A model generated the notes under the pieces. It searched no databases. It saw only the letters and a program-made list of their open reading frames with translations, and had not been told where the DNA came from. Made by a program: the position numbers and the translations under genes. DNA of 63,990 nucleotides, the filler included, from Catajapyx aquilonaris (Eukaryota): the NCBI GenBank assembly GCA_000934665.2. It is 3 parts of 3 records of this genome, joined end to end, with 100 filler letters (N's around TTAATTAATTAA, not from the genome) between each part and the next. Parts side by side here need not be neighbours in the genome. Positions count along the whole stretch, not along the records: positions 42,835 to 63,990 come from KZ539480.1; 2 more parts are not named here. One strand, given 5' to 3'. Below, one piece after another: positions 30,139-60,893 of this stretch (position 1 is the first letter of the stretch; each line of letters opens with the position of its first letter).

Positions 30139-30434
30139 TTTTATTTTTATTTTACTTACCCCGTGATACAACTACTTGGTCGTTATAGGGGGGGGGGGGG
30201 GGNGAAATAGGGTAAGGGTTGGGGATTTTGGGGAGGGGACACATGTGCAGGTGCATTGTCCAGCGGTGGGCCAGGTGCAGTCCCCCAGGAGGTCAGGTTG
30301 CCAAGACGCCTCCTTAGGCGCGGGTCACGACCCATTGACGCAAGCGAAAGGTTTGCTCCCGGGTGGGGATTTGAACCCGGGACCTTTCGCATAGCAAGCC
30401 GAGACGTTACCATCTCGGCCACCGTGCCTCCCCG
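30139..30434 (-). mobile_element. tRNA-derived SINE, family S2
   Basis: A box TGGCCGAGATGG, B box GGTTCAAATCC, A-rich tail, 12-bp TSD GTTAGCCCATAT (30127-30138, 30435-30446). The 5' ~220 bp are near-identical to the copy at 45059. Confidence 0.9.
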
Positions 30435-33400
30435 GTTAGCCCATATCCGTATCGGTAAAAACCTGTAGCGGACGATAATTTCAATTCGCTACTTCCGTGT
30501 GTAAAATTACAGCCATTTAAATGGGCTTTTCATAATTCAAGTGTGTAACTCATTGACAAAATTGAAAGTGGTACTATAAGAGCGCGTGGAAATTTTCACC
30601 AATACGGATGTGACCTAACTGATGAAAAACGAGGTATATACACACGCGCCTTCTCTCCACCATCCTGTTTCTCATTCCCAATTCCCCTTCCTCATTTCTT
30701 CCCCTTTTGTCTTTCTAACGTTGCTGCTCAATATTCGCTTTCAACAATTTCCCCACCGCCATTCTTCCCCACCTTCTATGCAACATTTTCCTTTACCAAT
30801 TCTCTTTCGGGCTCCTCCCACACCCATCTCTCGCCTTTCCCATGCGTGATCGCTTCGGATTTGCCATGAAGGAAGTTCCGATTATGTTTGGCAAATAGGT
30901 GGCTCCTTTGGAAGACCCTTCCCCTGATGGCGACGACGGGGGACGACGCGAAAAGGAAAAGGTCCATGGGAAAGGCGTTATGGGCTAGAAATCGTATCAA
31001 GTGTTTTAGAGGGTCGCTCGGAAATGGTTCTTGATGTATCCCAAGGGTGAGAGGGGGGAGGAAAGCGGGAGAAAGCCTTTGTATTTGATGAATTGGACCT
31101 GAAAGAAAGGTCCGGAGTAACGTGCAAGCAAACACGCCTCGAGGATGAACCAGAGCCCAATGCAGTAGTTTTAGGCCACATCAGGGATTTTATAATTTGC
31201 GCACTGGAAGTCCTAGTCCCATTGCACCACTGTCAGTAATCCATTATTTCACAAATCTAGCTCATTATGTTGCGAAATTCAGAAGATATTGATATTGCAG
31301 CTGTATTCTCCACATTTTACCTGGATTGTTCTATACATATGCAAACTCTTATTTAAGCGTTTACTGTCCTTATAAGTTGAAAATCAGCTTGGAAATAACC
31401 CCACATTTTCTGATCTGTTCCGCTTCACTTTTCTTCGTGAGACTACATCTGCACTGGTGTCAGTTGTATCCATGTAAACAAACCAGGTTGAGAAATGAGA
31501 TGATCCGGAATTGGAGAGCTCGTTGCATCTACTGGGAGAGTCAGCAGTATTTCCGCTAGTGTAATGACGCGAGAAGTGCAAAAGCGCGCGAGTTCCAATC
31601 TCGCAAAATGGCGTTGCATAGAGAGTGGCACGTGGGTCTGAAAACGAATGGGCGCCATTGACATTTGCGCATCGAAATAACGTAGCAAGCGAGAGAAGAA
31701 GCATCAGCAGCTGGAGCACAGGGTGTTGCAAGTCGCATTTATACAACCGGATGCGGAGGTATAGCAGACAAGAAAGGCGGCCCAGACACTTTATCACGTC
31801 TCAGCATGCTCGGAGAGGCCATAGTACAGAGGCTATTTGGTAGGTCTGTATACTAAGCGGCAATCTCTAAGGACGTATTACTTTCTTCCATATTTATCAA
31901 ATCTTGCAGTATCCTGGCAAATCCAAGCCTAATTTAAAATATTACAATTTTGGTACCCAGTACTAAAGTTACTACTGCATCATACAGTATACTGTAGATT
32001 CACTACCCATGTAGACCTAATCTACCTGTGAGGACCACGAACAGGCTAAGTAGAAATTTTTCATCTTTCATGTACGTACCGTAGAGCTATCATACACTTG
32101 TTAAATCATGTACCGGTTTTGCCACCTACATTGCTCTAAATTCCCTCAGTAAGCACCAGTAGCTATTCTTTATTATCTGGAAAAATGCACAGTCATGTTG
32201 ATGAAATGGATTAAGATGCCATCATTTCTCCCAGGAGAAAATCAGGTAATTATGATCATCCTCCATATAATATTATGAAGACCTGCAGTGAAAGGAAAAG
32301 TGGTGATCAAGCGAGGTCAATTAATTAAATACCGGTAAACTGTCTAAAATGCTTACAGTCTGAACGTCCGTACTGTTTATTTTTCGAATAATCAGCTTTA
32401 TTTGCATAACTTATAGTGTTTGTTGCATGAAGCGCTACAGATCTTAAGAAATACAGACAGGTGATTAGTAAGCAGTTCAATACCAACACCAATTTTCCCA
32501 AAACAGGCCACGCTGATAGAGAAGAAATTAAATAACCCTTACAGTGCAATGTGTGTACTCTACAGTGTAAGTTACCCAAAACATCATTCTGAAGGCACTT
32601 GGCCCTTTGTTAACTCGGGGATAAGATTTGAGAATTGCATTTCCATATTTCAACATCAGAGCCTGTAAGGGCATCCTTAACTTTTCTACGGATATTAAAT
32701 CTTGGGTGTTCAGTATATATTGGAAGTTCAAAAATATTCACACATACATAATTATATCATTGGTGAAAGTATGAGCGCTATCGACAGGTAGCTGGTTTTG
32801 AGTTACACAGCTGAAAATTTTGCGAGCCTGTATAGAATCCCCTCGGGAAGTTATTTCAGATATGATATTGAACCATATGAATATCTAGCGAATTTATATC
32901 ATGCGTAGGTGTTTAAGTCCACATTTTCACACTGTTTTAACCTTTTCAGTTGGATTGCAATTTAGTAGGCCCTTTAATAGAATAGCAGGATGATCAAAAA
33001 TACCCTGGATACATTTGATAAACACTAAAAGTAACTATGCAAACGCAATTCCTAAAATAAGCGGCTTATTGCAATATTATTATCAAAAACATGACAAATG
33101 TAAACGAAGACACTAAGCATAGTACTAACCCATCACCAGTGCTTACCCTATGGCTGAGACACAGATAGAGGAACGGCACTTGACATGACACATCCAGTAT
33201 GTTGATTTTGCCTTTCAAAAAACATGAACAATCATTGGCTATGACAAACTGCTCATCACTTATCCAAATCCCCTAAATTACCAAAGCAATAACCTAAATC
33301 TAAATAATTGCCGATCCACATAAAAATATGTAATAGGCTATACTGTACACTTACACACATAAATAAACTCAACGTTAATAATTACCAAATTAACAGTTAT

Positions 33401-38932: not shown

Positions 38933-39209
38933 ACTGAAGCAGGTTGGCCTAGTGGATAAGGCGTCCGACTGCTAATCGGGATGTCCTGGGTTCGAATCCC
39001 GGGGCCGGCAACTCTGACCGTGGTTTTCTGTGGTTTCCCACGGTCCTTCCAGGGAAATTCCGGGGTTGCTTCCGCAATTAATAGGCCACAGCCGCTTCCT
39101 TCCGTCCCTATCCTATCCCATAAAGCGCAGTAAAATGAAAGCAAAGAGTTCCAGGCAAAACAAACTTCCCCCCTAAAGAGCCGATGGCTGATAACGGGGT
39201 ATGAATTAT
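38933..39209 (+). mobile_element. tRNA-derived SINE, family S1 (Ser-GCT-like anticodon arm)
   Basis: A box TGGCCTAGTGG, GACTGCTAATC anticodon arm, B box GGTTCGAATCC, body GGTTTTCTGTGGTTTCCC. Imperfect TSD TATATGnnCTCGTTT at 38916-30 and 39210-24. Second copy at 45796. Confidence 0.9.
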
Positions 39210-45058: not shown

Positions 45059-45395
45059 GGGGGAGGCACGGTGGCCGAGATGGTAACGTCTCGGCTTGCT
45101 ATGCGAAAGGTCCCGGGTTCAAATCCCCACCCGGGAGCAAACCTTTCGCTTGCGTCATTGGGTCGTGACCCGCGCCTAAGGAGGCGTCTTGGCAACCTGA
45201 CCTCCTGGGGGACTGCACCTGGCCCACCGCTGGACAATGCACCTGCACATGTGTCCCCTCTCCAAAATCCCCTACCCTTACCCAATTTCCTAGTATTCCT
45301 TGCACCGGTGATTGAAGTAAAAACACAAGAGAAAACTGTATGGTGGTCTGCCACCCCCCAAATAGGCCCTTGATGCCTGGCACGGGGTAAAATAA

Positions 45396-46203: not shown

Positions 46204-46713
46204 ACAGTGAGGCAGAAAAACTGATACGCCATGGTAGCTGAGCTCCCCTTCTACGACGAGGTGGTAGGAGCACTTTGAGCCTCTGATTGAGCCATTTCTG
46301 TCTAAACTGGAGAGCGCCCAGATCAAAAACCCGCAGATCATCATATGATGCACGTAGGCCTCAAAGGGTTATTTGTCAAATTTTTCAATAGAAATTCGCC
46401 AATTTGGGGCCCCCTGTTTCTGTCGGGGCCATGTTGGCCGGCGCATTGACCCCTGTCCATAATATGTGAAGATTCGATAAGACTTGCCCAAACACACGCT
46501 AATTCTCTCACCCTGAAAATGCAACCACTCAAGACATATGAAAAAGGAAAAGGGCTAAAAATGCGTACAAACAGGGTGTTCGTAAGTTGACCTCGTACAA
46601 TACAGTACTTCTACTTGTTCCCACACATTCTGCAGTGCATATGGTGCAATTGATATTTTTCTGTGTGTGTCTTCCACAGATTTCCCCCCATACAGAGTGC
46701 CACTGGTTGAGCC

Positions 46714-49192
46714 ATGCCAGGCCCGTATGATGGAGTGGGTTGCGTGACATTTGTGAAGCGTGAGGAGGTCCCTTCATCTGAAATCATAGCCTGGATTCAG
46801 ACAAATGTGGACACTGCACATAATGTGCACCACTCCCTGCAGATCATTGGGCCCAAATTGGATGCCAGGCCATCCTATGATCTGGTCCTGCAGCCTGATG
46901 CGATCTACCTTGTTCGATGCCGGGATCTTGTCCGGTACCGCTGCATAGTCCTCCCTGAGGTGCCCTCCCATCCGAGGCACGTTAGGGTGAGGCTGATTGA
47001 CTTTGGTACCGAAACTGAAGCCTCCGTGTGTAACATGCGCCCGTGGAAGGCACAACCTGGACTAGAACAGGGACCTCTCTCATCGCAGCACTTTCTTGCC
47101 GATCTGTATCCGCCTTTGGGGCATGTGTGGGTCGACCCACATTTCACAGCACTGCGAGATGCCCTAGAAGACAGACTTTTTTGCTACAAGGTTGTAGGCC
47201 AACATGAGGGTGTCCCTGTGTTTCAGCTCTTCAGCAAGGTAAATGGGAAGCCATTGAGCGAGGTTTCCCAGCAGGTGGGTCTGTGCGCTAGACGGCCACG
47301 TGCGTACCAGTTCCTGTCCCTTGAGGCTGGGGAGTACCGGGCTTACGTGTCTGAAGCTGCCGGAGGACCCCACTTCTTCCATGTACAGATGGCCAGTTCA
47401 GAAGTGGCTCTGAATGTCATGGGAGCCAAACTATCTGCTTTGAATCTTGAAACAGTGAACCAAGTACCTCGACTGGGTTCACCTGTCTTGGCGCGCTACA
47501 GCCAGGATAGTTTGCCTTACCGAGCCATAGTAATTTCTGCTCTGGATGCACCCACCACTGTACGGTAAGTATCAATGCATCAACGGTCTTCTCAATAGCG
47601 TACTTACACATTACTTTTGTTGTGCAGATTTGTTGATTAAGGCAACTCTGAGCAGGTCGCTAGTCACCAGCTGGCCTTCTGTCCGGACAACTTCTTGGTA
47701 CCAGAGCCCCTTGCAATCCCCTGCAGCCTGAGGGATGCCCATGGGATTGTAGGGAATCATTTTGCGGATATCACTTCCGACATTGAACTGAAAATACACA
47801 TTGTGCGGCCCGCTGATGATGATGTTTATCAGGTGTCCTTGTACCTCCCTGATGGGCAAAGTGTTTTGGACATTTTGAGGTCATGCGGACACGTTGGCAG
47901 CATCGCAGCTGGCTACCCAGAGCGCGAGCCACTGATGGCAGGGGACAGCGTGAGAGGCGTGTGCATCCTCATTGAAGAAAACCACGTCTGGATGCAGCTG
48001 CTGGAGGACTTGCATCGTCTCGAGAGGCTCATGGGGAGGGTCCAGGGCTGTGCCGCTGTTGCACCAGGAAACACCTTGAGTCCTAATCTGCTGTATCCTG
48101 GTACAGTATGTCTGGCTCGCTCATCAAGTGACCGTGCCTGGTACCGTGCAGAGATCATGTCAGACCCTATGGTCAAGTCCGTACAAGTCAGGATGGTGGA
48201 TTATGGATTCAAGGAAGAGGTATCCATTGCTGAAGTACTACCAAAGATGGATGATGACACGCCCAAGACTGCCATACTGATAGAGCTGGATGCCATTAGA
48301 ACTATTCCACATCAATGGGCTCCTAAGCTGATTGAGAAGGAATCGGACATGAATGTGCTGGAAGTGTCAGACGGCAAATATGTGTCAAATCTGATTCTGA
48401 AAGGAAATAAGTGCCTCAATGAGGCACTTGTCCTTGCAGAGTTGCAGAGCCATCCAGTCCCCTGGGTGCCAGAGCTTCAAAGCACGGAGGAGATGTTTGT
48501 TGCCCAGGTCGACCTACCACCTTACATGTATGCCCAACCTCTCAGGTTTATGGCCATTGACTTACCAGCATTAGACAAAGCCTTGAATGAGAAGTACGAA
48601 AAGCTAACAAGGCACCCACGGTACCTGTATACACCGGATGCGTTCGTTGTCGGGAAACTTCCGGAGTCACACGTTGGGGAAGCGTGTGTGGTTTTTGATT
48701 CTGCAACTGGTAGCTACTTCAGAGGAAAGGTAAGTCGTCAATCCGCCATTGCATTGATGGTTTTTGTTCAATGGTCCTCTTTTTGTTGCATTGTAGGTGT
48801 TAAGTGAATGCCCGTCGACCCAGATGATCCGTGTCCGCCTGGTGGACTAAGGACGTGTTTTGCAAGTAGGCCGTGAGATGGTGTTTTGCATGGAGGCTCG
48901 CTTCATGAGGCAGAAGATGTTGGGATTCTGCTGCAAGGTGAACAACTTCCCCCGCGGCATATCTGAGCCAACCTTCAAGAGCGTAATGACCAATGCCAGC
49001 ATGGCCTTCCAAGTGTTGGGGGCAGAAGAAGAGGAAGATGCTCGGGAGATGGTAGTGAGCGTGACCATTCTCAACACAGACCATGGAAGGAAGGTGATGG
49101 CCAATTTACAACCAGCTGCCAGGCGGGCAGACTCGTTCAAGTCTGGCTTCAAGACTAGGATAAAGTGGCCAAAACAATTTGAGCCCCCATAG
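46714..49192 (+). pseudogene. Multi-Tudor-domain (TDRD-type, 4 extended Tudor domains) gene with two in-frame TAA codons; pseudogene or recoded gene
   Basis: Exons 46714-47564, 47628-48729 and 48797-49192 are joined by GTAAGT...AG introns (phase 2, phase 0) into 783 codons. Tudor motifs: RYRC..VRLIDFG; ARYSQDSLPYRA..VRFVD*GNSE; ARSSSDRAWYRAEI..VRMVDYG; FDSATGSYFRGKV..VRLVD*G. TAA at 47638-40 and 48848-50, final TAG at 49190-92, AATAAA at 49451. Confidence 0.85.
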
Positions 49193-49652
49193 TACATGAC
49201 ACATTCCAAGGGAACAAGATGTGTTTGGAAGTGAAGCTATTTTTTTATTGCATTTGGGTACATGCAATTATTTTTCTCATGCTAGATGAAGGTATAGTCA
49301 TGCATTTTTTGGAACCAAATATTTTTTCTACTCGTACTTAATAAGCGTAATGGTAATGCTGATTTTTGTATTTTGATGAAGATTGTGGTGTTACTAGCTG
49401 ATTTTCTTTTCACCAATTGATGCTCGTTTGTTGTTCCTTAAGAGAAAGAGAATAAAACAGGAAAAAAAACATGGCTGCCATTATCATCATTATCAATTTT
49501 ATCATTGTGATTATTCGTAGAGTAACTTGGACTCTTTCCCAGTCCCAGTCATTTACATAAGATAATTATGAAAAAACGGAAAAAAACAGCACCATTGTTG
49601 CCTAAAAATTTTCTTCCCCCACCCAACTAGAAAGAAAAACAAAAAATAACTA

Positions 49653-56724: not shown

Positions 56725-57690
56725 GTGGGCACTTAGGTCGTCGGCGTTAAGAGTACGTTTGTGTCAGTACCATTGATGTCTGCCTTGTGAGTACTGTACC
56801 ACAGGCTAAAGATATTCGTGGCATTGCCAATTATTGTGTAGGATTAACTAGAACTCGTAAGGGTTTCCTGCTGTCCAACCGAGAAGGTTGGAATTCGTAA
56901 GTAAACGTATGCCAGGGTGTAGGCTACTATAAAAGTTTGCAGAAGCAGCACTGCCGAGACACACAGCTCATCAACCCAGATGGCTATGGGATGCGGGTCA
57001 ATGACACTCTGGGCAAGCATTGTGATTTCCAAACCCTGTGATCCTATATGGGCCTGCGGTTCACTCCCTAATAGTGTGAAGTAGTAAGCCCTTTTTGCCC
57101 TAGTATAGTCAATATAGTCAAGCACGTTGATGTTCTCTCTTCATTGGCCAGCTATTCTGCTTACTTATGAGAAGTACTCAGAGAGCAGAATAGTCCAAAC
57201 GTTTTCCAGAAGAAACACTACTAGTCTATGGTAAATGGTGGTATTTTCATTAAACTTGAGCTTACACTATGTACAGTGGCTTATTTAAGACATGTGAAAG
57301 CTCATTTTCACGGTATCTAAGACCATTATCAGATTATTCCTCTTTTCCGAGTATCTGGGCACACCAAAGCATTGATTAGTAGTGATAATCGGGAGTACAG
57401 TGTACATACACACACATTTCCCAATGAGAATAAGTTGGAATAAGTGATATTATGCAAGGGAAAAGTAGACACAAAAATATGCAAATGTGCAAAATCTGCA
57501 CTATTCAAATACTATGCTTCATCAAAATACATCTGGTGTTGTTTCAGCCATTCAAATTATGGCCACAATATGCGATCAACAGAAACAGAACAATGGTAGG
57601 CTGCATATATGGGAGTCTCCTTATTTTGCATGAGAAATAAATGATTCCCTATTTCCCCCTAACATGAGCTGTACATTGTATGACAGGACC

Positions 57691-58194
57691 ATGGCATTGC
57701 CTCTGAGAGTCAAGAAAGAAGAAACGCTTGATGGAGAAGATGAGGAGATCACAGTGGAGGAGAGTTGGAGGCTACTGCTGAAGGAGGAGACCACTTCTTG
57801 CTGTGATGAAGACTCGACTCTCATACAAGACACGCTGCGTGAGATCAAGAAGGAGGAAGCAGAGAAGGAGATGGCTGTGGCCACGTCTATGGAGGACAAA
57901 GAGGAAGATTACCCATTAGGAGTTGTTCCAGCAGAGAAGGAGGAGGAGGAGGAAGTGCAGGAAGGAGAAGAAGATGGAAACATCACAGTGGAGGAGACCT
58001 GGCAATTTCGGTTGAAGGAGGAGACCCCTTCTTGCTTTGATGATGACTCTACTCTCATACAAGACACGCTGCGTGAGATCAAGAAGGAGGAAGCAGCGGA
58101 GGAGGAGGAAGAAGAAGAGAGGGTGGTGGCCATGACCAAGGAGGTAGATGATGCAGATGACCCTTTAGGAGTTGGTTCTGGAAGGACTAGTGGG
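57691..58194 (+). CDS. C2H2 zinc-finger gene 1, acidic N-terminal coding exon
   Basis: tgacag|gaccATG...GGG|gtatgt, 168 codons, phase 0. Two copies of an ITVEE-W-LKEET-DDSTLIQDTLREIKKEE-DPLGV module. Confidence 0.85.
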
Positions 58195-58910
58195 GTATGT
58201 AACCTGCTGAAAATCTGAAGTAAAGTTACAGTAGGATAAGGGGCCCAAATTTCGACACCCTTACGTTGTTTTCCTCTTGTTAGAAAATGGCTGAATGCAG
58301 CAATGTAAGGAAAATGAATATTAATACATAGAACATTCACCTACTATGTCCCGTAATGAAAATTTTGAACAAAATTATAGGAAAAAGCACAAAATTGAAA
58401 AAGTGAAAACACCCATTTTTTCAGTTTCAAAGAAAGTGTTCCTAATTTCAGCCCCTGCGTTTTAATGGGATGCAGGGAGGGAGTATGGGCCACATTTATT
58501 TTACCTTATACCAAACTGCCAACGCTTATACTGTACCTTGTATGAGAGGGGTATTATGTACAGTATTATGTGAACAGTCGGGGACCCAAGTATTTTTGCC
58601 AAGTTTCCCAGGGGTTCACTAGTTGTAAATTCTAAGGTATACAAAAAAAAACTTCTCCAGTATGATCAATCTATATTCAACTGTTTCAAGAACATTCAGA
58701 TGTGAGGGTTGGCAAGGTTCAATGTCCTGCTCATTCCTCCAGCACTGTTATTTTCTCTCATATGATGATCTCAGGCAGAGTTCTACAAATGCTAAAAGAG
58801 GCTTTGCTATAAGGAGTGCCTTCCAAATGACCAAAACACACGTGGAAATATGTACTACATCGACCCTACATAATTGTACAGTAATTGATATGCTGCAATT
58901 CAATTTTCAG

Positions 58911-59510
58911 GAAATGCAAGAGAAAGATCATCAAGTCAGTGTGAAGAAAGCAGTCCTGAAGAAAAAGATTGCTAGAATCTGTGATAGAAGGAAGCCATTT
59001 CAGTGCGTAGTGTGCCAGAAACCATTGACTACAGCACAAAATTTGAAAGTTCACATGTTAATTCATACATGTGAGAAACCATATAGTTGTGAAATATGCC
59101 ATAAGAAGTTTCGTGAATCAAGTAAGGTGAAAAAGCACATGCGAATTCATACAGGCGAGAAACCATTTAGTTGTGAGGTGTGCCATAAGAAGTTTCGTGA
59201 ATCAAGTAAGGTGAAAAGGCACATGCGAATTCATACAGGCGAGAAACCATTTAGTTGTGAGGTGTGCCAGGAAAAATTTAATGAATCAGGTTCGTTGAAA
59301 AGGCACATGCATATTCATACAGGCGCTAAATCATTTCAGTGTGAGGTGTGCCAGAAGACGTTTCGTGATTCAACTGGTTTGAAGAGGCACATGCTAATTC
59401 ATACAGGCGAGAAACCATTTAGTTGTGAGGTGTGCCATAAGAAGTTTCGTGAATCAAGTAAGGTGAAAAATCACATGCGAATTCATACAGGAGAGAGACC
59501 ATGTACATAA
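58911..59510 (+). CDS. C2H2 zinc-finger gene 1, terminal exon with 6 Kruppel-type fingers (367 aa total)
   Basis: ttttcag|GAA in phase 0; six CxxC-x12-HxxxH units with TGEKP-type linkers; TAA at 59508-10. Confidence 0.92.
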   Translation, partial: EMQEKDHQVSVKKAVLKKKIARICDRRKPFQCVVCQKPLTTAQNLKVHMLIHTCEKPYSCEICHKKFRESSKVKKHMRIHTGEKPFSCEVCHKKFRESSKVKRHMRIHTGEKPFSCEVCQEKFNESGSLKRHMHIHTGAKSFQCEVCQKTFRDSTGLKRHMLIHTGEKPFSCEVCHKKFRESSKVKNHMRIHTGERPCT

Positions 59511-60079: not shown

Positions 60080-60204
60080 GTGGGCAATTGGTAGACCTTT
60101 GGATATGTGCAGAAGGACAAGTAGATGCCACATGGGTTACACTCACGTGCTATTTATTGTTAGTGACATGATCGCAAGACCTCCCCTCTTGTGTTTGCAG
60201 GACC

Positions 60205-60474
60205 ATGTCGTTGATCCTGAGGATAAAGAAGGAAGAGACGGAGGAAGAAGAAGGAGAAGAGGACATCACAGTGGATGAGGAGAGTTGGAGGCTGCGGTTG
60301 AAGGAGGAGACCCCTTCTTGCTTTGATGGGGACTCGACTCTCATAGAAGACACTCTCCTCGAGATCAAGAAGGAGGAAGCGGAGGAGGAGGAGGAGGAGA
60401 TGATGATGGCCATATCTGAGGAGGTTGGAGATGAAGATGACCCTTTGGGAGTTGGATCAGGGAGGATTAGTGGG
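60205..60474 (+). CDS. C2H2 zinc-finger paralog 2, acidic N-terminal exon (finger exon not in window)
   Basis: tttgcag|gaccATG...GGG|gtatgt, 90 codons, same boundaries as 57691-58194, single acidic module. Confidence 0.8.
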
Positions 60475-60893
60475 GTATGTAAGCTGCTGAAAATCTGCCA
60501 TAATCTTACAGCATATTTACACCGTGCTGTACCTCCACTGGCTTTATGTCAGTCCACATGTATGCACCAGCTCTGTCCATTTTTTTACATGTAAGAATGA
60601 CCCCTCCACTTGTCAACAATGAGGCATATGTTGCTTTTTGTGCAATATGCATACCAACTTCAGGTCATTTGCTCTACTGGGCAATTCCACGTGAATGTGA
60701 TCACCTTTTGCACAAAAAAATTTGCCCGTCGATGAGTGGGAGATATGTTTTAGTCCTGCTCAAGTTATGACCTTTCCCACAAGGATTTGGTCCGCTCATG
60801 CGTGGTTGCCTATCTACAGGCGCTAATTGCACTTGGATCACAGTTAGAGGCGCCCCCCTATTACATTTACATGACAACGTAAATGCATGATGT

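What the first reader, a model, noticed from the sequence alone, without database searches (positions are those of the whole stretch)
47628..48850. Four-Tudor gene whose only two internal stops are both UAA at the homologous Tyr of the Tudor D-Y-G motif
Seen: after canonical splicing the frame runs 783 codons with just two interruptions, codon 288 (TTT GTT GAT TAA GGC AAC, FVD*GN, Tudor 2) and codon 669 (CTG GTG GAC TAA GGA, LVD*G, Tudor 4). Both have the context GAY-TAA-GG, while Tudors 1 and 3 keep DFG and DYG. Known: this aromatic residue is part of the methyl-arginine-binding cage of extended Tudor domains, which act in the piRNA pathway, and tRNA-Tyr is a known near-cognate decoder of UAA/UAG. 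Inference: random decay would rarely hit the same motif position twice among the many codons one step from a stop. Alternatives are programmed UAA-to-Tyr readthrough or editing giving 1-, 3- and 4-Tudor isoforms, a context-specific mutation or sequencing error, or a young pseudogene with a coincidence. No strong in-frame alternative acceptor skips either stop.
Basis: partly seen in the sequence, partly recalled or inferred. Interest (0 to 1): 0.8.

Follow-up and report, generated by a model that had tools for sequence, protein, structure and literature searches.

The report
Polymorphic stop codons in Tudor gene
A fast-evolving animal gene with four Tudor domains carries two stop codons at matching positions, but at least the first also exists as a normal tyrosine codon in sequencing reads, so this looks like ordinary recent gene decay rather than a new way of reading stop codons.

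Summary
The three-exon gene (46714-49192, +) has 783 codons. Its only internal stops are TAA at codons 288 and 669. Both fall in the aromatic D-Y-G column of Tudor 2 and Tudor 4.

The readthrough reading is not supported:
- **Site 1 is polymorphic.** In contigs of public DNA runs of one sample, 47640 reads C (TAC, Tyr) in two runs and A in a third. One 762-base contig differs from the window only at that base.
- **The context favours termination.** Both stops are UAA-GG, which is reported as the most readthrough-inhibiting context in human cells (PMC10954755). Neither has unusual downstream RNA structure.
- **Constraint looks relaxed.** The 32 coding differences shown give pN/pS 0.67, which is compatible with neutrality.
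- **The sites are mutation-prone.** TAC followed by a Gly codon makes a CpG. 16 of the 40 differences shown touch a CpG, and 5 of these are C/A or G/T changes.

Chance alone gives 0.03-0.09% for this column and 0.4% for any shared column. Some coincidence therefore remains unexplained.

Site 2 (48850) could not be read from the reads. No close relative exists in the protein collections I searched.

My best reading is young, still segregating nonsense variants in a lineage-specific multi-Tudor gene. Interest is low.

The parts
46714..47564 (+). Exon 1: ATG at 46714 with an in-frame TGA just upstream at 46708-46710. It encodes Tudor 1 and the first half of Tudor 2, and ends CG|gtaagt.
   Evidence: Sequence, ORF list, translation. 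Pfam TUDOR E 4.7e-10, 40 bits for the exon. Tudor 1 scanned alone gives 20.5 bits, below the cut-off of 23.
47565..47627 (+). Intron 1, 63 bases, gt..ag, with in-frame stops inside it
   Evidence: Sequence. No read evidence for this junction was shown.
47628..48729 (+). Exon 2: second half of Tudor 2, all of Tudor 3, first half of Tudor 4
   Evidence: Translation. Pfam TUDOR E 1.1e-20, 74.3 bits. Tudor 3 alone gives 52.3 bits. The only solved relative by sequence is TDRD1, 5m9n_A, E 1.3e-6.
47638..47640 (+). TAA 1 (codon 288) at the cage Tyr of Tudor 2. It is polymorphic: 47640 is A or C (TAA or TAC).
   Evidence: table 3. At 47640, A>C holds the whole depth in X1 (40.9 of 40.9) and X3 (47.6 of 47.6) and none in X2 (0 of 29.9). 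X1 record 3 (762 letters, 47143-47904) has that one difference only.
48730..48796 (+). Intron 2, 67 bases, gt..ag
   Evidence: Sequence. One contig of run X5 (kind not on record) joins 48729 to 48797 at GT..AG. No such joint appears in DNA runs X1-X3 (table 5).
48797..49192 (+). Exon 3: second half of Tudor 4 and the C-terminus. The final stop is TAG at 49190-49192.
   Evidence: Translation. Weak Pfam TUDOR match, 14.9 bits, E 0.028, profile 75-119.
48848..48850 (+). TAA 2 (codon 669) at the same column in Tudor 4. It lies in the last exon. Its state in the reads is unresolved.
   Evidence: One search shows no row for this place, but 83 of 123 rows were hidden. The three DNA contigs that cover it all end at 48856, and each has one unlisted difference.
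47338..47733 (+). Tudor 2 (interrupted by intron 1). This is the only repeat with a full cage pattern: Y, Y, F, [Tyr/stop], then Asn.
   Evidence: Pfam halves score 22.9 bits (profile 8-75) and 25.0 bits (profile 86-120). Cage columns come from the TDRD1 alignment carried over through the repeat alignment. Which TDRD1 residues form the cage is recalled, not from a call.
47962..48243 (+). Tudor 3 core (MVDYGF), with an incomplete cage
49146..49187 (.). Core of an interspersed repeat that overlaps the last ~15 codons. The repeat runs on past 49187 across the final stop (TAG 49190-49192).
   Evidence: Summed contig depth in bin 49148-49238 is 67474 (X1), 43604 (X2) and 72796 (X3). Dozens of contigs have unlike flanks at 49146 and at 49184-49187. 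No second copy lies in the window.

Best explanation
This is a lineage-specific, fast-evolving gene of four tandem Tudor domains, related to the TDRD/Tudor scaffold proteins of the piRNA pathway. It is in an early and still polymorphic stage of decay. Each TAA most likely arose from TAC by a C-to-A change at a CpG. The motif Asp-Tyr-Gly is encoded GAY-TAC-GGN, so whenever Tyr uses TAC its last base is the C of a CpG, one step from TAA. At site 1 the intact TAC version is still present beside TAA in one sequenced sample (shown). The TAA 1 version should end translation after 287 residues. That stop lies far upstream of the last exon junction, so its mRNA should be a target of nonsense-mediated decay (inferred from general knowledge). 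A version with only TAA 2 would give a 668-residue protein that lacks the second half of Tudor 4 (inferred). That both stops fall in the same column is partly explained by this CpG-prone codon pair. The rest is coincidence. The assembly may also be a mosaic of versions, so the two stops need not sit on one natural chromosome (inferred).
For: (1): 47640 reads C in the contigs of X1 and X3 and A in X2, all from one sample. The X1 contig of 762 letters differs from the window at that base only. (2): of the 40 differences shown out of 123, 33 fall in coding sequence. One is 47640 itself; the other 32 are 10 synonymous and 22 non-synonymous. pN/pS is 0.67, not different from neutral (binomial p 0.30), and omega of 0.2 or less is rejected (p 0.0009). 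The excess of amino-acid changes also holds upstream of TAA 1 (11 to 3). (3): 16 of the 40 differences touch a CpG in one of the two states, although CpG letters make up 170 of 2700 positions. Five are C/A or G/T changes at a CpG (46725, 47585, 47640, 48261, 48593). CpG observed/expected is 0.51 in the CDS against 0.72 in the window. (4): only 4 of 26 Tyr codons are TAC followed by G (codons 211, 288, 607, 669), and two of these four are the D-Y-G tyrosines. (5): there is no other stop and no frameshift in 783 codons, so the damage is young. (6): several distinct contigs 90-99% alike cover the same stretch. In X1, 48363-48494 has three contigs with 0, 9 and 20 other letters. More than two versions therefore exist in the sample. 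(7): the context and structure are those of efficient termination.
Against: The chance that two random nonsense changes fall in this column is only 0.03-0.09%, and 0.4% for any shared column. CpG context raises this but does not remove it. The state of 48850 in reads is unknown, so polymorphism is shown for one site only. The contigs are consensus paths that drop variants and mix versions. They give neither phase nor allele frequency, and they cannot tell an allele from a near-identical paralog. The pN/pS rests on the 40 rows the tool chose to show out of 123, and these mix alleles and paralogs. piRNA-pathway genes can also have high pN/pS because of positive selection (recalled). The ancestral TAC at site 2 is assumed, not observed.
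Confidence: 0.62

Rival explanations
1. The window holds a fixed, dead paralog. The TAC-bearing contigs come from a nearly identical intact sister copy elsewhere in the genome, not from an allele.
For: One search shows more than two versions of parts of the gene in one sample (three contigs over 48363-48494 in X1). At 46690-46693, two contig types both differ from the window. An X5 contig about 10% unlike the window (24 other letters in 241) is spliced at intron 2, so another family member seems to be expressed or processed.
Against: The TAC contig of X1 is identical to the window at 761 of 762 letters, whereas other versions differ by 1-10%. A paralog that close would be an extremely recent copy. 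No second copy lies in the 64-kb window. No whole genome was available to look for one.
Confidence: 0.2
2. One or both TAA codons are artefacts of base calling or of consensus building in a very heterozygous assembly. No chromosome in nature carries both stops, and perhaps none carries either.
For:: the contig otherwise identical to the window reads C at 47640. All contigs shown over 48797-48856 belong to a version unlike the window (48736, 48766, 48825 all differ). Each has one further unlisted difference, which could lie at 48850.
Against: The X2 contig reads A at 47640, so A is well represented in the reads of that run. Contig building removes rare errors. If these runs are the source of the assembly, this is not independent support.
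Confidence: 0.1
3. Programmed readthrough of UAA by a near-cognate tRNA-Tyr produces graded amounts of 1-, 3- and 4-Tudor isoforms.
For: The frame stays open for 783 codons. Both stops replace the same cage Tyr. Tyr, Gln and Lys are inserted at UAA and UAG in yeast (abstract of PMC4150775). Chance alone gives 0.03-0.4%.
Against: UAA is the least leaky stop, UAAG the most readthrough-inhibiting combination, and UAAG(G/C)NNNC the inhibitory motif in HEK293T cells (passages of PMC10954755). Site 1 is UAAGGCAAC, an exact match, and site 2 is UAAGG. Folding of 123 bases from each stop is no better than shuffles (z -0.65 and +0.16). Site 1 is TAA/TAC polymorphic. Constraint downstream is weak. TAA 1 lies 10 bases after an exon junction and far upstream of the last junction, a position expected to trigger mRNA decay (general knowledge).
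Confidence: 0.03
4. The organism, or this transcript, decodes or edits UAA as an aromatic residue. This could be a variant nuclear code with TAA = Tyr, or double A-to-I editing of UAA to UGG (Trp).
For: Under TAA = Tyr, the TAA/TAC difference at 47640 would be synonymous.
Against: The C2H2 zinc-finger ORF 58629-59510 ends at TAA directly after a finger. No zinc-finger sequence follows in frame (one gene only). The other 26 Tyr codons of the gene are TAT or TAC. Editing could not be tested.
Confidence: 0.01

Closest known systems
TDRD1 (four extended Tudor domains plus an N-terminal MYND finger; piRNA-pathway scaffold)
   Same: Four tandem Tudor repeats. The only solved structure found by sequence is human TDRD1 (5m9n_A, E 1.3e-6, aligned to Tudor 3). 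Tudor 2 shows the canonical pattern ending in F-V-D-[Y]-G-N.
   Different: Pfam found no MYND or any other domain in exon 1. The protein has 782 residues. Only one of the four repeats has a full cage pattern. Identity to anything in the collections is at most 36%.
Giant multi-Tudor proteins (Drosophila Tudor, TDRD6, TDRD15 type)
   Same: These are the best sequence relatives. The top hit is E 1.7e-93 over 15 matched stretches at 30% identity. The sources name such hits 'Tudor domain containing 15', 'protein tudor-like' and 'maternal protein tudor-like'. The one long-protein hit from the word-index search is a TDR15 protein.
   Different: Those proteins have 933-4497 residues and 4-19 matched stretches. 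This gene has four repeats and three exons, and no relative above 36% identity among the 150 listed.
Cellular and viral programmed stop-codon readthrough (for example UGA-C or UAG-CAA-UUA contexts and downstream stem-loops or pseudoknots; examples recalled)
   Same: An in-frame stop is followed by a long open frame. Tyr is a known insertion at UAA.
   Different: The stop is UAA with G at +4 and G at +5, the termination-favouring context. No stimulatory structure was found. The stops are internal to a domain rather than at a C-terminal extension. Site 1 is polymorphic with a sense codon.
Segregating nonsense polymorphisms and young pseudogenes in recently expanded gene families
   Same: Stop and sense versions coexist in one sample. 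Substitution is near neutral. There are no further lesions. Several versions of the gene exist in the sample.
   Different: Both stops hit the homologous functional residue of two repeats, which is unusual.

Membership tests
Tudor domain family (Pfam PF00567) / multi-Tudor TDRD proteins | Significant match to the Tudor profile in each repeat | tested here: met
   Exon 1 scores 40 bits and exon 2 scores 74.3 bits, against a cut-off of 23. Piecewise: Tudor 3 scores 52.3 bits. The Tudor 2 halves score 22.9 and 25.0 bits. Tudor 1 scores 20.5 bits, below the cut-off. The second half of Tudor 4 scores 14.9 bits (E 0.028), and its first half has no match. Two repeats are therefore clear and two are weak.
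Tudor domain family (Pfam PF00567) / multi-Tudor TDRD proteins | Aromatic cage of four aromatic residues plus the Asn that contacts dimethyl-arginine | tested here: inconclusive
   By alignment to TDRD1 and between repeats, Tudor 2 has Y, Y, F, [stop or Tyr], N. Tudor 1, 3 and 4 each lack at least the third aromatic residue and the Asn. The role of the cage and the Asn is stated in passages of PMC10711660. Which TDRD1 residues form the cage is recalled.
Tudor domain family (Pfam PF00567) / multi-Tudor TDRD proteins | Extended Tudor fold (Tudor core with SN-like flanks) | tested here: inconclusive
   The single-sequence AlphaFold2 model of Tudor 3 (191 residues) has mean pLDDT 41.7 and pTM 0.34. 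This is too poor for a fold search.
Tudor domain family (Pfam PF00567) / multi-Tudor TDRD proteins | Binding of methylated PIWI tails and a germline role | not testable with these tools
   No expression or binding data were available.
TDRD1 orthologue | N-terminal MYND zinc finger before the four Tudor domains | tested here: not met
   The Pfam scan of exon 1 at E up to 1 lists TUDOR only. An in-frame TGA lies directly upstream of the ATG.
Programmed stop-codon readthrough gene | Leaky stop and 3' context | tested here: not met
   Both sites are UAA-GG. UAAG is reported as the most readthrough-inhibiting combination and UAAG(G/C)NNNC as the inhibitory motif (PMC10954755 passages). That study used human cells, not this organism.
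Programmed stop-codon readthrough gene | Stimulatory RNA structure downstream of the stop | tested here: not met
   Folding 123 bases from each stop gives z -0.65 and +0.16 against 200 shuffles. A control downstream of the intact Tudor 3 Tyr gives +0.87.
Programmed stop-codon readthrough gene | Stop codon kept among versions, with coding constraint downstream | tested here: not met
   Site 1 is TAA or TAC within one sample. pN/pS is 0.67 over the 32 coding differences shown. Site 2 is not resolved, and no orthologues were found.
Programmed stop-codon readthrough gene | A detectable readthrough product | not testable with these tools
   This needs ribosome profiling, mass spectrometry or a reporter assay.
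Young or polymorphic pseudogene | Disabling and intact versions coexist | tested here: met
   Met at site 1: A and C are both present at 47640. Site 2 is inconclusive.
Young or polymorphic pseudogene | Relaxed constraint with few lesions | tested here: met
   pN/pS is 0.67, p 0.30 against neutrality. Only two stops and no frameshift occur in 783 codons. This rests on a partial sample of differences, 40 of 123 rows.
Variant nuclear genetic code with TAA = Tyr | TAA does not terminate other genes | tested here: not met
   The zinc-finger ORF 58629-59510 ends at TAA and no finger sequence follows in frame. Only one gene was examined.

The most novel reading that the evidence does not exclude
The two UAA codons are kept because they are useful. 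Low-level decoding of UAA as Tyr at the cage position of Tudor 2 and Tudor 4 would ration the amount of full-length, methyl-arginine-binding scaffold. The TAA/TAC difference at site 1 would then be a natural dosage polymorphism of a piRNA-pathway adaptor.
Probability: 0.03. Interest if true: 0.8.

Novelty: new member of a known kind. Interest (0 to 1): 0.15.

Why it matters
If my reading is right, this is an ordinary snapshot of gene-family turnover. A young, divergent multi-Tudor gene is losing function through nonsense variants at CpG-prone Tyr codons. One general point is modest but useful. A D-Y-G motif encoded GAY-TAC-GGN puts the cage tyrosine one CpG transversion away from TAA, so repeated Tudor domains share a built-in weak spot. 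Matching stops in repeats are therefore less surprising than a uniform model suggests. If readthrough were real, it would be a rare case of UAA recoding inside a domain in an animal gene. The evidence here speaks against that.

Tried and rejected
- **Whole genome of the window:** none is held, so I could not search for paralogs.
- **Protein relatives:** the word-index searches gave one distant hit among long proteins, none for exon 3 at near lengths and none for exon 2 among short proteins. The exhaustive search with exon 2 listed 150 of 930 hits, all at 26-36% identity. No orthologue or close paralog was available to read the two columns.
- **Metagenome contigs:** an exact pattern around TAA 2 with N at the third base found nothing. 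A protein-based scan gave one 28-residue match at 57% identity (L001), which I did not pursue.
- **Earlier notes of the scan:** none for this place, its look-alikes or its sequence. Two notes on other Tudor genes of the same genome turned up.
- **Sequencing runs:** no RNA holder is listed, so this says nothing about expression.
- **Reads at 48850:** However, 83 of 123 rows were hidden, and differences near contig ends are not listed. Site 2 stays open. Parts of the gene without X5 cover are not interpreted.
- **Structure:** the single-sequence AlphaFold2 model of Tudor 3 was too poor (pLDDT 41.7), so I ran no fold search.
- **RNA families:** Rfam over the window found only a tRNA at 38939-39010, and nothing near the gene or the repeat at its 3' end.
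- **Gene conversion between Tudor 2 and Tudor 4:** considered and rejected, because the 18 bases around the two stops agree at only 11 positions (by eye).
- **Oxidative or dye cross-talk sequencing errors (recalled):** considered and rejected as the sole cause at site 1, because each allele won a contig in at least one run.
Full report
**What is there**

The window is animal-like DNA. It has GT..AG introns, microsatellites, tRNA-derived repeats and a C2H2 zinc-finger gene.

On the + strand an ATG at 46714, with an in-frame TGA just before it, opens a three-exon gene:
- exon 1, 46714-47564
- exon 2, 47628-48729
- exon 3, 48797-49192

Joined by coordinates, these give 2349 bases or 783 codons, with stops only at codons 288, 669 and 783. 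The two internal stops are TAA at 47638-47640 (FVD*GN) and TAA at 48848-48850 (LVD*GR).

One contig of run X5, whose kind is not on record, joins 48729 to 48797 exactly at the predicted GT..AG. The three DNA runs show no such joint. That contig is about 10% unlike the window (24 other letters in 241), so it comes from another version of the gene. Intron 1 has no read support in what was shown.

Pfam finds Tudor domains in exon 1 (40 bits) and exon 2 (74.3 bits). Scanned piece by piece:

| Repeat | Pfam TUDOR result |
|---|---|
| Tudor 1 | 20.5 bits, just under the cut-off of 23 |
| Tudor 2, first half | 22.9 bits, profile 8-75 |
| Tudor 2, second half | 25.0 bits, profile 86-120 |
| Tudor 3 | 52.3 bits |
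| Tudor 4, first half | no match |
| Tudor 4, second half | 14.9 bits, E 0.028, profile 75-119 |

Both stops fall at about profile position 89. In a MAFFT alignment of the four repeats they share a column with F97 and Y476.

I carried the alignment of Tudor 3 to human TDRD1 (5m9n_A, E 1.3e-6) over to the other repeats. Only Tudor 2 then has the complete pattern of cage aromatics plus the Asn after Gly (Y, Y, F, [stop], N). Tudor 1, 3 and 4 lack at least the third aromatic residue and the Asn. The role of the cage and the Asn is described in PMC10711660 (passages). Which TDRD1 residues form the cage is from my recall.

**How unlikely is it**

I took both stops back to TAC. This is backed by reads at site 1 and assumed at site 2.
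- The CDS then has 274 single-base paths to a stop, in 225 codons.
- Two random hits fall in the aromatic column with probability 0.032% under uniform weights.
- With rough weights I derived by hand from the counts, that becomes 0.088%.
- For any shared aligned column the probability is 0.4%.

The pattern was selected after the fact, though, from a scan of very many windows.

**What the reads say**

Five runs hold the stretch. Four are from one sample (S1, "DNA?") and one is from another study (X5). I laid X1, X2, X3 and X5, all as contigs.

At 47640:

| Run | State at 47640 | Depth showing C / all depth | Contig |
|---|---|---|---|
| X1 | C | 40.9 / 40.9 | 762 letters (47143-47904); this is its only difference from the window |
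| X3 | C | 47.6 / 47.6 | 687 letters (47169-47855), 13 other letters |
| X2 | A | 0 / 29.9 | 762 letters (47143-47904), 8 other letters |

Contigs show presence, not absence. Both TAA and TAC (Tyr) therefore exist in that sample. Because each variant is resolved separately when contigs are built, the contigs give no phase.

The sample also holds more than two versions of parts of the gene. In X1, three contigs with 0, 9 and 20 other letters cover 48363-48494. At 46690-46693, two contig types both differ from the window. Paralogs, pooled individuals, or a window from another individual all remain possible.

For 48850 no row is shown, but 83 of 123 rows were hidden. The three DNA contigs that cover it (X1 48558-48856, X2 48688-48856, X3 48633-48856) all end at 48856. 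They belong to a version unlike the window (48736, 48766, 48825 all differ). Each has exactly one difference that the table does not list, and its place is unknown.

**Constraint and mutation pattern**

Seven of the 40 differences shown are non-coding. One is 47640 itself. The other 32 are 10 synonymous and 22 non-synonymous. With 544 synonymous and 1796 non-synonymous sites:
- pN/pS is 0.67.
- This is compatible with neutrality (p 0.30).
- It is incompatible with omega of 0.2 or less (p 0.0009) or 0.3 or less (p 0.023).

The excess of amino-acid changes is already seen upstream of the first stop (11 to 3). The whole gene, not only its tail, therefore looks weakly constrained.

Sixteen of the 40 differences touch a CpG in one of the two states, although CpG letters are 170 of 2700 positions. 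Five of them are C/A or G/T changes at a CpG, including 47640. The CDS is CpG-poor (observed/expected 0.51) compared with the window (0.72). This pattern fits germline methylation of the gene body, which is my inference.

Tyr in D-Y-G is followed by a Gly codon, so a TAC there always forms a CpG. Only 4 of the 26 Tyr codons are TAC before G, and two of these four are the D-Y-G tyrosines of Tudor 2 and Tudor 4. Tudor 3 uses TAT and Tudor 1 uses TTT. The two sites are thus among the few CpG-transversion routes to a stop (23 such paths). This reduces the coincidence but does not abolish it.

**Tests of the readthrough idea**

- **Context.** Tyr is indeed one of the residues inserted at UAA in yeast (abstract of PMC4150775). 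In human cells, however, UAA is the least permissive stop. UAAG is the most inhibiting combination and UAAG(G/C)NNNC is the inhibitory motif (passages of PMC10954755). Site 1 reads UAAGGCAAC, an exact match, and site 2 reads UAAGG.
- **Structure.** Folding 123 bases from each stop gives z -0.65 and +0.16 against shuffles. A control after the intact Tudor 3 Tyr gives +0.87.
- **Position.** TAA 1 lies 10 bases after an exon junction and more than 1 kb upstream of the last junction. By general knowledge this marks an mRNA for nonsense-mediated decay. TAA 2 is in the last exon.
- **Genetic code.** A genome-wide TAA = Tyr code is unlikely. The zinc-finger ORF 58629-59510 ends at TAA and no finger sequence follows in frame (one gene only).
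- **Splicing.** By eye, a weak in-frame acceptor at 48877|48878 could skip TAA 2 with 27 codons. The X5 contig uses the regular acceptor.

**Relatives**

No close relative was found:
- The exhaustive search with exon 2 gave 930 hits at E up to 0.001. All 150 listed are at 26-36% identity and have 933-4497 residues with many Tudor stretches.
- The four of the ten looked up whose cluster carries a name are called "Tudor domain containing 15", an uncharacterized protein, "protein tudor-like" and "maternal protein tudor-like".
- The other searches found nothing useful.
- No whole genome is held.
- Earlier notes of this scan mention other Tudor genes in the same genome, one of them a young chimeric multi-Tudor/RRM gene. 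I did not test those notes. They fit a picture of active turnover in this family.

**Verdict**

The most likely reading (0.62) is a lineage-specific four-Tudor gene under weak constraint, carrying young nonsense variants created by C-to-A changes at the CpG of TAC-GGN. The first of these is shown to be still polymorphic.

Other readings:
- A fixed dead paralog with a near-identical intact sister copy (0.2).
- An assembly or base-call artefact at one or both sites (0.1).
- Programmed readthrough (0.03), which is contradicted by context, structure, polymorphism and weak constraint.
- A variant genetic code or RNA editing (0.01).

The residual coincidence of the shared column is real and is not fully explained.

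Noticed in passing
window 49146-49187 (and on to about 49200): The last ~15 codons and the final TAG of the Tudor gene lie in a short sequence that occurs in very many contigs with unlike flanks. Summed contig depth is 67474 in X1 for bin 49148-49238. Dozens of loose ends occur at 49146 and 49184-49187. It is probably an interspersed repeat that now supplies the C-terminus and the stop. There is no second copy in the window and no Rfam match.
   Followed up: partly
window 45059-45373 (+) and 30183-30488 (-): Two copies of the same repeat lie on opposite strands. Their longest frames translate alike (GGTVAEMVTSRLAMRKVPGSNPHPGANLSLAS...). Both are flanked by (AAT)n microsatellites. They look like a tRNA-derived SINE.
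   Followed up: no
window 57634-59510 and 60172-60594 (+): A C2H2 zinc-finger gene (six fingers, Pfam zf-C2H2 E 8.5e-32) is preceded by an acidic repeat-rich ORF at 57634-58218. A similar acidic ORF recurs at 60172-60594, suggesting tandem paralogs.
   Followed up: partly
window 38939-39010 (+): tRNA-Ser (GCT) is called by ARAGORN and Rfam (46.3 bits). It may be a gene or the head of a SINE.
   Followed up: no
window 48877-48878: An in-frame AG acceptor (..ccgtgag|ATGGTG) would skip TAA 2 and 27 codons of the Tudor 4 core. It has a weak pyrimidine tract and is not used by the one spliced contig seen.
   Followed up: partly
window 46735 (9 bases): Contigs of X2 and X3 lack 9 bases at 46735, an in-frame 3-codon deletion near the N-terminus. 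The X1 contig keeps them (table 4). This is further length variation between versions of the gene.
   Followed up: no
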